A DNA stretch of 64,000 nucleotides from Candidatus Scalinduaceae bacterium. GTDB lineage: Bacteria; Planctomycetota; Brocadiia; Brocadiales; Scalinduaceae. The position numbers are program-made. The stretch is from NCBI GenBank assembly GCA_046759445.1, contig JBHICG010000008.1, positions 1 to 64,000 of the forward strand. Direction: 5' to 3'. Positions 9,001 through 12,000 of this stretch are shown here, piece after piece (positions within the stretch are counted from its first letter, which is position 1; every line of letters begins with the position of its first letter).

Positions 9001-12000
9001 ATCCATCACAACCTACAGCAACAGCGGCCTTTGTTAAGGGTTCAATCATTTCTCTCTGTCCTCCGGAAGTTGTGCCTTCTTTACCAGGTAATTGTACACT
9101 ATGTGTGGCATCGTAGAAAACCGGGTATCCCATGTCCTTGATAATAACGATTGAACGCATATCAGTTACAAGGTTGTTATAACCAAACATTGTACCTCTT
9201 TCAGTAAATATTATGTTCTCATTACCTGTAGAAATGATCTTTTCTGCTATATTTCTAACATCCCATGGGGCTAAGAATTGTCCCTTTTTTATGTTTATTG
9301 GTTTACCTGTTTTTGCCGCATGTATAAGTAAGTCAGTTTGTCTGCAAAGAAACGCAGGTATCTGGATTATGTCTAAAACATCCTTTACTTCATCTATTTC
9401 ATTAGAACAATGAACGTCTGAAAGTACAGGTATGCCAATTTGTCTTTTAATCTTTGATAGAATCTTGATGCCCTTTTTAATACCGGGTCCTCTGTATGAT
9501 TTGACAGATGTACGATTTGCCTTATCATATGATGCCTTGAAAATAAATGGTATTTTTGCACTATACGTTATTGCCTTAAGCCTTTCAGCAACTCTGCAGC
9601 AACCGTCTTCATTTTCAATAACACAGGGTCCTGCAATCAAAACTAAAGGATGATTTTCCCCAAGTATTATGTCATTTATCTGAATTTTACTTTTGTCTTT
9701 CATCAAGAAATTAATTTATGCTCAGCAAAAATGATTTGTTAACACTATAAAGCATCATACGGTATGATTATTAAAATGACAAAAATGATTATTGGTGTGA
9801 AGATTATCTATATCATAGTTCTAAATATTAGTCAAACCTTTAATTTCTGACAAATTTTCATTTGCATTTTTATATATATTTGATATAAATTCTCTTAGTA
9901 TATCCAGATAAGACATAAGGTAAACTGTTGTTTACAATCTGTAACATTACACTGCTGATTTCAACGTTTAATGTTTGAATTTGATAGTATTCATATCAGA
10001 TTAGCTTAAGTTGGAAAGCTCAATTACAGTTATATAAGTTGAAAATTATGCAACATTATAGGAGTTAAATTGATGATAAATAGCGAATTGGATATTGATA
10101 CAATTTTGTCCTCAGAAAATTTAACCAGGGAAGACTTTATCGAGTTAAGAAAAAGGGTTTATTCTTCTAAAGGTGAATTAGAAAAACTTCAGGAAAAAGT
10201 ACAAAAGTTGACATTGTCAATCAGTAAGTCAAGAGACTCTCAAAAAGTAAAGGAAAACACGCTTATTTTGGGGATATGCCATTGGATATCGGGAAACATA
10301 GACGAAGCTATAGAATTACTCTATACGCTAAAGTCCCGCAAAATTGCCTCTTATTTCCTGGGAAAATGTTATCAAGAGCATGGAGATTATGAAAAGGCGA
10401 TTGAATGTCTTGAGCGTTCACAGCCATCTGATACTGAAGATTTCGAAATACAAATGGATATAGCAGAAACAAAGAGAATGGATGGTGACCTACAAAATGC
10501 CCTGAAATTAGTAAAAAAACTGTCAAAGACGCATGATAACGAAGCTGACTTACATTATCAATGGGCACATTGTCTAGATAATCTTGGTGAACGAGAAGAT
10601 GCTATGGCCCATTATAATCATGCATTAGAGATCGATCCGACACATAGTAGCACTTTGTTTCGTCTTGCTTATAATTATGATCTTAAAGGGGATGACGAAA
10701 AGGCAATTGAATATTACGAAAAATGTGTTAGACATGTTCCCGCATATATTAATGCTGTCATAAACCTGGGAATACTTTATGAAGATCATGAAGATTATGA
10801 AAAGGCCATGTATTGTTTTGAGACAGTATTAAAATCAAATCCTAATCACGAAAAAGCAAGGCGTTTTCTCAAAGATACAAGAGCATGTTTAAAAATGTAT
10901 TATGATGAAGACAAGGCAAAGAAAAAAGATGAGGAGAGCGAAGTCTTAAACATACCAATCTCAGATTTTGAGCTTTCTGTTAGGAGCAAAAATTGCCTGG
11001 AGCGAATGAATATAAAAACACTCGCTGATTTAACAAAGATAACAGAAACAGATCTATTAACTTATAAAAATTTTGGAGAAACTTCTTTAACAGAAGTTAA
11101 ACATATACTTAGTCAAAAAGGGTTGCGTCTTGGACAGTCACTTGAAGAAAAGAAACAAGCAGACAAGCTCGTTGATTTTGATGCTAGTGCTGACAAAGAA
11201 AAACTCTCAAAACCAATATCTGAATTAACGCTTTCAACTCGCTGCAGAAAGTCTCTTGAAAAGATGAAAATTGAAACAATAGGTGATTTAGTATTTAAAA
11301 CAGAATCCGAACTTTTAAGACGTAAGGGCTTTAAACAGACATATATTGATGAAATAAAGGAACAGCTTGGTATTTGTGGTTTTAAGGTTCATGGTGGAAT
11401 GAATAACCAGTTAAACTCCTGACTTACACTTAAGCCCAAACAGCACGCTAGTCATAAATCTCATGAGATTTATAACAAACCCCTTTAAATATCTCACCCA
11501 CTATTTTGATTAAGTGCCTGATTTCTGTTTTTCCACTATTTATTTGGCAGTCTTTGATATTATACACACAATATTGCTTAATAAACCATTTATGAACATT
11601 TAACAGTAACTTAATGTTTGATTATATCCATGGTAGTATTGTATATAAAAAGCCTACAGAATTGACAGTAGAAGCCGATGGTATTGGTTATAAAATTAAC
11701 ATACCGCTATCAACGTTTGAAAGGCTTCAAAACAAAGAAGAAGCAAAAATATTCACAAGACTCTTAATAAAAGAGGATGAATTAAAAATTTATGGGTTTT
11801 CGTCACTTACTGAAAGAGATTTGTTCAATTTGCTTCTTTCTGTAAATGGTGTTGGACCAAACATGGCACTTACAATTTTATCTGGTTGTTCCGTAAGTCA
11901 ATTCAAAAAGTGTATTGTTGGGAACGACTTAGGAACATTACGGCACGTAAAGGGGATTGGGAAAAAAACTGCTGAAAGGATTATCCTGGAACTTAAAGAA

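What a model noticed while it worked through the whole genome (the two positions that open the first line are those of the whole stretch)
10073..11422. A second, TPR-fused protein with two RNA polymerase alpha-CTDs is universal and single-copy in Planctomycetota
Besides rpoA (C72) the genome encodes a 449-aa protein of TPR repeats followed by two RpoA C-terminal domains, heading the ruvAB operon. It is single-copy across the whole phylum, and its Planctopirus counterpart takes almost no transposon insertions, pointing to an unrecognised essential transcription factor of planctomycetes.
Evidence so far: Pfam TPRs 94-259, RNA_pol_A_CTD 284-347 and 373-432. One match in 13/13 Brocadiales and 31/31 phylum genomes of 25 families; near ruvB in 60 of 91 order genomes; 400 50%-clusters at E<=1e-30, top ones mostly 430-470 aa. 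The first CTD keeps the R-x-x-N-C DNA-binding motif (sequence; motif recalled). In the TraDIS supplement of PMC10632474 Plim_0602 carries both COG0202 and COG0457 (TPR) and an insertion index of 0.0007.
(Added by a program. Inside this text positions count along the whole contig: contig position 1 is position 1 of the stretch shown here. "Call 12" and the like, gene names such as g00115 and contig names such as C1 are that model's own, and its searches are not shown. The text may have been shortened before it was handed on; [...] marks where a part breaks off. The agent that wrote the report below was given it as the finding of a first reader that could run no searches.)

Follow-up and report, generated by a model that had tools for sequence, protein, structure and literature searches.

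The report
Essential planctomycete protein with spare alpha-CTDs
This gene encodes a protein found in nearly every planctomycete genome examined that joins a protein-binding repeat scaffold to two spare copies of RNA polymerase's DNA-gripping tail domain; its counterpart in a cultured species is needed for growth, and I found no study of what it does.

Summary
Window 10073-11422 encodes a 449-aa protein: TPR array plus two RpoA alpha-CTDs, no alpha-NTD; rpoA lies on another contig. A family profile finds one copy in 119 of 121 phylum genomes and 61 of 61 of the order. Plim_0602 is now tied by sequence (ADG66450.1, 36% identical, reciprocal best hit): 1 insertion in 1,355 bp, and its downstream gene is dispensable, so polarity does not explain this. 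Corrections: not strictly single-copy (16 of 151 genomes of one family give two matches); ruvA follows in 67 of 119 genomes, ruvB rarely; the second CTD has lost its DNA-contact residues in 30 of 30 proteins of this window's order. The first CTD keeps R265/N294/G296/S299 in 29 of 29 genomes, is mostly acidic at the sigma-contact positions 259/261, and is more conserved than RpoA's own CTD. Best reading (0.45): an RNA-polymerase-associated factor that supplies an extra alpha-CTD in trans. Rival (0.25): a DNA tether for RuvA-linked maintenance, since ruvABC score essential too. No binding was shown; range outside the phylum is barely tested. This scan reported the family at least eight times before on other genomes.

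The parts
10060..10064 (+). Ribosome-binding-site-like AGGAG, 8 nt before the ATG
   Evidence: sequence
10073..11422 (+). Gene for the 449-aa TPR + 2x alpha-CTD protein (P0001)
   Evidence: family profile A1
10073..10645 (+). N-terminal helices and variable TPR repeats (residues 1-191); 16-28% mean identity by segment; partly absent in short members of about 310 aa
10646..10909 (+). Last two TPRs, capping helix and M-x-Y-D-E linker (residues 192-279): conserved non-consensus residues F196, R197, N231, E237, D238, R261, D268, M275, D278; likely partner-binding groove (groove placement inferred from recalled TPR geometry)
   Evidence: 21-29 of 29 genomes per position
10922..11113 (+). alpha-CTD 1 (residues 284-347): keeps E. 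coli-equivalent R265, N268, C269, N294, G296, S299, E302, D259, E261; K297 is E, K298 is T, A267 is K
11189..11368 (+). alpha-CTD 2 (residues 373-432): keeps R265 but has G, K, Y at 294, 296, 299; degenerate across the order
11614..12201 (+). ruvA, the commonest next gene across the phylum
   Evidence: Pfam RuvA_N/HHH_5/RuvA_C; 67 of 119 genomes
12428..13447 (+). ruvB
   Evidence: Pfam RuvB_N/RuvB_C
13456..20157 (+). Rest of the same-strand cluster: queH, spoIID/lytB-like, tgt, yajC, secDF
   Evidence: queH and SpoIID by Pfam; tgt, yajC, secDF recognised from sequence and from the same order in loci L004-L008, whose clusters were named by Pfam

Best explanation
An essential, phylum-wide cofactor of RNA polymerase that supplies alpha-CTD function in trans. 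The conserved groove of the last TPRs binds a partner in the transcription machinery (sigma-A or core polymerase); CTD1, joined to it by a helix, binds the minor groove of upstream DNA beside sigma region 4 as RpoA's CTD does; CTD2, on a variable linker, is a second, auxiliary DNA contact that one cultured species still needs and the anammox order has let decay. Shown: architecture, distribution, residue conservation, near-absence of insertions in the orthologue. Inferred: DNA binding, the partner, and a role at promoters.
For: CTD1 keeps R265/N294/G296/S299 in 29 of 29 matched genomes (RpoA CTD 26 of 29) and is more conserved than RpoA's CTD from the same genomes (66.6% vs 54.6% mean pairwise identity; higher in 338 of 406 pairs). 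R265, N294 and K298 are named as UP-element contacts in PMC5101437 and R265/N294 in PMC5511352 (passages). D259/E261, which contact sigma70 R603 (PMC5511352), are D or E in 29 of 29 and 28 of 29 CTD1s; the R603 equivalent is present in 29 of 29 sigma-A tails read from 30 loci. CTD1 is more basic than RpoA CTD (mean net +2.0 vs -0.2, unmatched sets). The orthologue has 1 insertion in 1,355 bp and stands in the essential-gene figure of PMC10632474. The gene stays in place where ruvA has moved or diverged and I found no SOS-box-like motif upstream in 131 loci. Lineage-specific DNA- and sigma-binding cofactors exist in other phyla (RbpA, GcrA, GrgA; PMC7403470 passages).
Against: No binding to DNA, sigma or core was shown. 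K298 is T (as in planctomycete RpoA, 28 of 29) and K297 is E or D in 28 of 29 CTD1s, an acidic residue at the start of the DNA-facing helix. Planctomycete RpoA has its own intact CTD, so a spare is not obviously needed. R603 is so widely conserved that its presence says little. No transcription gene recurs among the neighbours; the recurring one is ruvA (67 of 119), and ruvA, ruvB and ruvC also have low insertion indices in P. limnophila (0.0032, 0.0048, 0.0059). High conservation of CTD1 could reflect packing against the TPR rather than an outside ligand.
Confidence: 0.45

Rival explanations
1. A DNA tether for chromosome maintenance: the alpha-CTD (helix-hairpin-helix) pair grips DNA without regard to promoters and the TPR recruits RuvA or another repair, replication or segregation protein, for example where polymerase and replication forks collide.
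For: ruvA is the next gene in 67 of 119 genomes and 37 of 61 families, at a median of about 27 nt; ruvB follows ruvA in only 11 of 56 of these loci with room, so this pairing outlasts ruvA-ruvB. ruvABC score essential in P. limnophila.
Against: In 52 of 119 genomes another gene follows. In several of these a divergent ruvA sits beside ruvB elsewhere while the family's groove residues persist. The gene also stays ahead of queH, spoIID or tgt when ruvAB leave, as expected of the first gene of an old operon. No SOS-box-like motif upstream. The sigma-contact acidic pair is kept in CTD1.
Confidence: 0.25
2. An alpha-CTD mimic that works through protein contacts: it captures activators, NusA, Rho or ribosomal partners of RpoA's CTD, as a decoy or adaptor, and DNA binding is weak or absent.
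For: K297 to E/D in 28 of 29 CTD1s; family-specific surface residues R267 (R/K 29 of 29), M273 (27 of 29), E286 (29 of 29); TPR arrays are protein-binding scaffolds (established knowledge).
Against: All four scored DNA-contact positions are intact in 29 of 29 CTD1s and 25 of 29 CTD2s, which a pure decoy would not need; a decoy is not expected to be essential.
Confidence: 0.2
3. A structural nucleoid protein that bridges or compacts DNA through its two HhH domains and self-associates through the TPRs.
For: Two DNA-binding-type domains in one chain, kept in most of the phylum; condensed nucleoids are typical of planctomycetes (recalled).
Against: CTD2 is degenerate in 30 of 30 proteins of the order and absent in at least one genome; strong residue-level conservation of a ligand groove suggests a specific partner; abundance unknown.
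Confidence: 0.1

Closest known systems
C-terminal domain of RNA polymerase alpha subunit (RpoA alpha-CTD, Pfam PF03118; PDB 1COO, 1LB2)
   Same: Two sequence-level copies (E 6e-15 to 1COO for CTD1); CTD1 keeps the UP-element and sigma-contact positions.
   Different: No alpha-NTD, so it cannot assemble into core as alpha does; fused to TPRs; two CTDs in one chain; K297 is acidic, 267 basic; CTD1, CTD2 and RpoA CTD form largely separate groups, 43-47% identical within a genome.
Lineage-specific RNAP-binding sigma activators: RbpA (Actinomycetes), GcrA (Alphaproteobacteria), GrgA (Chlamydiae)
   Same: Phylum-level distribution, a DNA-contacting part joined to a protein-binding part, needed for growth in the case of RbpA (PMC7403470 passages).
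   Different: No sequence relation seen (Pfam hits are TPR-like or alpha-CTD/HhH only); sigma binding not tested here; a functional analogy only.
TPR superhelix scaffolds (OGT TPR 1W3B, PilF/PilW, MamA, LapB)
   Same: Residues 6-276 adopt the same fold.
   Different: No NCBIfam TPR equivalog reaches its cut-off; none carries alpha-CTDs.
Database labels 'RNA polymerase alpha subunit domain protein' / 'DNA-directed RNA polymerase subunit alpha C-terminal domain-containing protein' / 'tetratricopeptide repeat protein'
   Same: These automatic names are what sources give family members, including ADG66450.1.
   Different: They name domains, not a family or a function; some sources mislabel it as the alpha subunit itself.

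Membership tests
RNA polymerase alpha subunit (RpoA) | N-terminal dimerisation/assembly domain | tested here: not met
   Residues 1-276 are TPR by sequence and fold; TIGR02027 rpoA scores 113 bits against a cut-off of 227.8, over the CTD only
RNA polymerase alpha subunit (RpoA) | Being the genome's rpoA in the ribosomal-protein cluster | tested here: not met
   A separate full rpoA lies on C72; 41 of 41 phylum genomes searched have their own
alpha-CTD domain family PF03118 | Profile score over the curated cut-off | tested here: met
   81.2 and 56.1 bits against 23.8
alpha-CTD domain family PF03118 | DNA-contact residues R265, N294, G296, S299 in CTD1 | tested here: met
   29 of 29 phylum genomes, 30 of 30 order loci; K298 is T as in planctomycete RpoA
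alpha-CTD domain family PF03118 | The same residues in CTD2 of this window's protein | tested here: not met
   G/K/Y at 294/296/299; 0 of 30 intact in the order, 25 of 29 intact in the phylum sample
alpha-CTD domain family PF03118 | Actual binding to UP-element DNA | not testable with these tools
   needs a binding assay
RNAP-binding sigma activators (RbpA/GcrA/GrgA kind) | Binds sigma or holoenzyme | not tested
   no complex model was obtained
RNAP-binding sigma activators (RbpA/GcrA/GrgA kind) | Confined to one lineage and general within it | tested here: inconclusive
   General within the phylum; outside it only indirect checks
RNAP-binding sigma activators (RbpA/GcrA/GrgA kind) | Required for growth | tested here: met
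   Orthologue Plim_0602, index 0.00074 against the paper's lower cut of 0.013, listed in its essential-gene figure; published data, one species

The most novel reading that the evidence does not exclude
Planctomycete RNA polymerase holoenzyme depends on a dedicated, subunit-like factor that carries its own alpha-CTDs on a TPR arm, so that upstream-DNA and sigma-4 contacts are made in trans by a separate essential protein rather than only by RpoA: a promoter-recognition architecture not described in other bacteria, possibly also linking transcription to RuvA.
Probability: 0.3. Interest if true: 0.85.

Novelty: new variant of a known kind. Interest (0 to 1): 0.62.

Why it matters
Planctomycetes are known for unusual cell biology, but how they transcribe is little studied. 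A protein present in 119 of 121 sampled genomes, with a domain more conserved than the polymerase's own and a growth requirement in a genetically tractable species, is a ready experimental handle. It is hidden in the published essential-gene set under the rpoA and TPR labels. Either outcome, a trans-acting alpha-CTD for transcription or an HhH tether for RuvA-linked maintenance, would be a new use of this domain.

Tried and rejected
Polar effect as the cause of low insertion density: rejected; clpC (Plim_0603) lies upstream of the gene and the downstream spoIID-like gene (Plim_0601) has index 0.14. True absence in five genomes without a match: probably assembly gaps; the four of family f5 also lack the SpoIID neighbour that 4 of 5 control genomes have (G035 lacks it), and in G006 that gene ends 270 nt from its contig end. 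General link to an upstream tRNA-Thr: rejected, 12 of 123 loci with enough flank (130 examined). A first neighbour count (tgt 43, spoIID 37, ruvA 13 of 83 loci) came from a set weighted to Planctomycetia and was replaced by the evenly drawn count. SOS-box-like motifs (recalled patterns): at chance level in 131 upstream regions. Promoter scan: 19 sites against 12.1 expected, none singled out. Expression: contigs of two metatranscriptome runs of one study cover parts of the gene but also intergenic DNA, so transcription is not shown. Tree of 87 CTDs: quick search only, 59 of 84 branches open; origin and order of duplication unresolved. Longer fused forms: 4 hits among 1,694 candidates, none with both TPR and alpha-CTD labels visible (weak evidence). 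Plasmids, phages, viral contigs: no full-length match. Complex prediction with sigma-A was not available; nothing was folded. Genomes of other phyla could not be searched. No solved structure covers both parts.

Full report
Observation. The ORF at 10073-11422 (+) gives a 449-aa protein behind an AGGAG. Pfam finds TPR models over about 94-259 and RNA_pol_A_CTD twice, at 284-347 and 373-432. The genome's third PF03118 match is a full 348-aa rpoA on contig C72. NCBIfam rpoA scores 113 bits against a cut-off of 227.8. The AlphaFold model from a 136-sequence alignment is confident throughout except the ends and the linker before CTD2 (pLDDT 93.6, pTM 0.74), and residues 6-276 match TPR superhelices. 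No solved chain covers both parts.

Distribution. 445 clusters at 50% identity reach E<=1e-30. A profile of 136 of them finds exactly one match in 119 of 121 phylum genomes of at least 90% completeness, 61 of 61 genomes of the order and 59 of 61 in a further, overlapping draw (misses G006 and a 66% complete genome). In family f5, 147 of 151 have it and 16 give two matches. Two of these 16 have weak best scores and may be one split gene (not examined). The others cluster by genus (g115 2 of 2, g123 2 of 2, g128 2 of 2, g132 3 of 3, g144 3 of 3), and three pairs checked are 55-57% identical, so these are real paralogues. Five genomes without a match are fragmented; four also lack the SpoIID neighbour and the fifth has it at a contig end. 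Genomes of other phyla could not be searched.

The Planctopirus gene. The cluster of the family protein from genome G148 contains ADG66450.1 of P. limnophila DSM 3776 (451 aa, 98.9% identical to the G148 protein). The next accession, ADG66451.1, is an 852-aa ClpC whose cluster holds a record labelled Plim_0603. ADG66450.1 is 36% identical to the window protein over 445 residues, and the window gene is its best hit in this genome (E 5e-81). The published indices equal 1/1,355 for Plim_0602 and 3/2,558 for Plim_0603, the lengths these proteins predict. In G148 the order on one strand is clpC, family gene, spoIID-like gene, with a thiamine-phosphate synthase gene diverging beyond clpC, matching the paper's PF02581 label for Plim_0604. 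The downstream gene Plim_0601 has index 0.14, so polarity does not explain the gap. At that density about 40 insertions would be expected in the last 96 codons alone; with one in the whole gene, CTD2 or an intact C-terminus is needed in that species (inference). Plim_0602 is listed in Fig. S3, which the text describes as the essential genes. Of PMC10632474 I saw the abstract, sections 7, 9, 23, the first part of 13, keyword passages, and rows of supplementary files 1 and 5. The file with Supplementary Data could not be read, so the formal call and the insertion position were not seen. The main text does not mention the gene.

Residues. E. coli numbering is the window's minus 39. In 29 genomes with both genes, CTD1 has 66.6% mean pairwise identity, RpoA's CTD 54.6% and CTD2 45.1%; CTD1 is the more conserved in 338 of 406 pairs, which are not independent. 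R265, N294, G296 and S/T299 are all present in 29 CTD1s, 26 RpoA CTDs and 25 CTD2s. R265, N294 and K298 are named as UP-element contacts in PMC5101437 (passage); G296 and S299 are recalled. K298 is T in most copies of all three, so that change is phylum-wide. D259 and E261, which contact sigma70 R603 (PMC5511352 passage), are acidic in 29 and 28 of 29 CTD1s, and the arginine is present in 29 of 29 sigma-A tails read from 30 loci. Family-specific changes are K297 to E/D (28 of 29), 267 to R/K (29 of 29) and 273 to M (27 of 29). In this window's order CTD1 is intact in 30 of 30 loci and CTD2 in 0 of 30. The profile match stops before CTD2 in 7 of 61 order genomes, confirmed as a 380-aa ORF followed by ruvA in G101. 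Conservation in the TPR part rises from 16-22% at the N-terminus to 37-44% in residues 192-281, where F196, R197, N231, E237, D238, R261, D268, M275 and D278 are kept. By recalled TPR geometry most of these line the concave groove. Members of about 310 aa lack the first repeats. The core is therefore the last TPRs plus CTD1.

Neighbourhood. In the evenly drawn phylum set ruvA is the next gene in 67 of 119 genomes (37 of 61 families); queH follows in 8, spoIID in 3, an asnS-like label in 3, others in 37, and 1 is too short. Of 68 loci with ruvA within 900 nt, 56 had room to see the next gene and ruvB was it in 11. In the Planctomycetia-rich set the gene sits ahead of spoIID, tgt, yajC and secDF. 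Of 22 genomes chosen mostly for lacking the adjacency, 20 have a RuvA_N match and 22 RuvB. In P. limnophila ruvA, ruvB and ruvC have indices of 0.0032-0.0059 and stand in the essential figure. This supports a DNA-maintenance rival, but the gene also behaves like the fixed head of an old operon from which ruvAB can leave.

Mechanism. The simplest account of a domain that keeps both the DNA face and the sigma-contact face of alpha-CTD, under stronger constraint than RpoA's, is that it does alpha-CTD's job, delivered by a TPR arm that binds the holoenzyme (0.45). Other phyla have their own DNA- and sigma-binding cofactors (PMC7403470 passages), which makes such a factor plausible but is only an analogy. 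Against it stand the acidic residue at 297, an intact RpoA CTD, the absence of transcription genes among neighbours, and the lack of any binding test. Rivals are a RuvA-linked DNA tether (0.25), a protein-contact mimic (0.2) and a nucleoid protein (0.1).

Novelty. Databases name it only by its domains. Eight searches of the held library found no description (listings only, and their hits were off topic). Subscription journals and the 2012 review (nothing seen) are outside this. The scan has reported the family on at least eight other genomes; those notes are not independent support. Verdict: real and unstudied, a new variant built from known domains, interest 0.62.

Noticed in passing
PMC10632474 supplement, Plim_2430, Plim_2444, Plim_2446: ruvB, ruvC and ruvA all have low insertion indices in P. 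limnophila and stand in the essential-gene figure, though the main text never mentions them; they are dispensable in E. coli (recalled).
   Followed up: partly
G011:C260, G037:C4, G040:C46, G060:C4, G071:C20, G077:C84, G107:C39, G110:C634, G030:C264: A divergent ruvA (weak, partial RuvA_N match) lies next to ruvB away from the family gene, suggesting a second ruvAB type in part of the phylum. G001 (one contig, 99% complete) and G013 gave no RuvA_N match.
   Followed up: partly
L272:1-1722 (-), G112; also G018:C30: Another protein type with three weak alpha-CTD repeats followed by a sigma-4-like helix-turn-helix (recognised by eye), in frames of about 800 aa in family f20; explains its extra PF03118 matches.
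   Followed up: partly
L271:1486-2613 (+), G061: 375-aa protein with two weak alpha-CTD repeats and a sigma-4-like TRERVRQ motif.
   Followed up: no
P0303, P0304: Proteins of about 1,590 aa labelled PF03118, PF14520, PF04545 and PF26169: long multi-HhH proteins, not this family.
   Followed up: no
window 7988-8061 (-): tRNA-Thr(cgt) 2 kb upstream on the opposite strand; the same tRNA sits directly upstream of the family gene in 12 loci, mostly titled Pirellulaceae or Planctomycetales.
   Followed up: yes
window 8296-8610 (-): 104-aa ORF between kdsA-like gene and tRNA-Thr with no Pfam hit.
   Followed up: no
G034:C26 and C343: Two full rpoA-like matches in one genome (5% contamination), either a duplication or binning error.
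   Followed up: no
L134:613-1650 (-), this genome's rpoA: Its CTD has H at position 268 and lacks the usual L-G-M end, unlike most planctomycete RpoAs.
   Followed up: no
L368:5001-5201: A single alpha-CTD-like match (42% over 66 residues) on a 106-kb viral contig.
   Followed up: no
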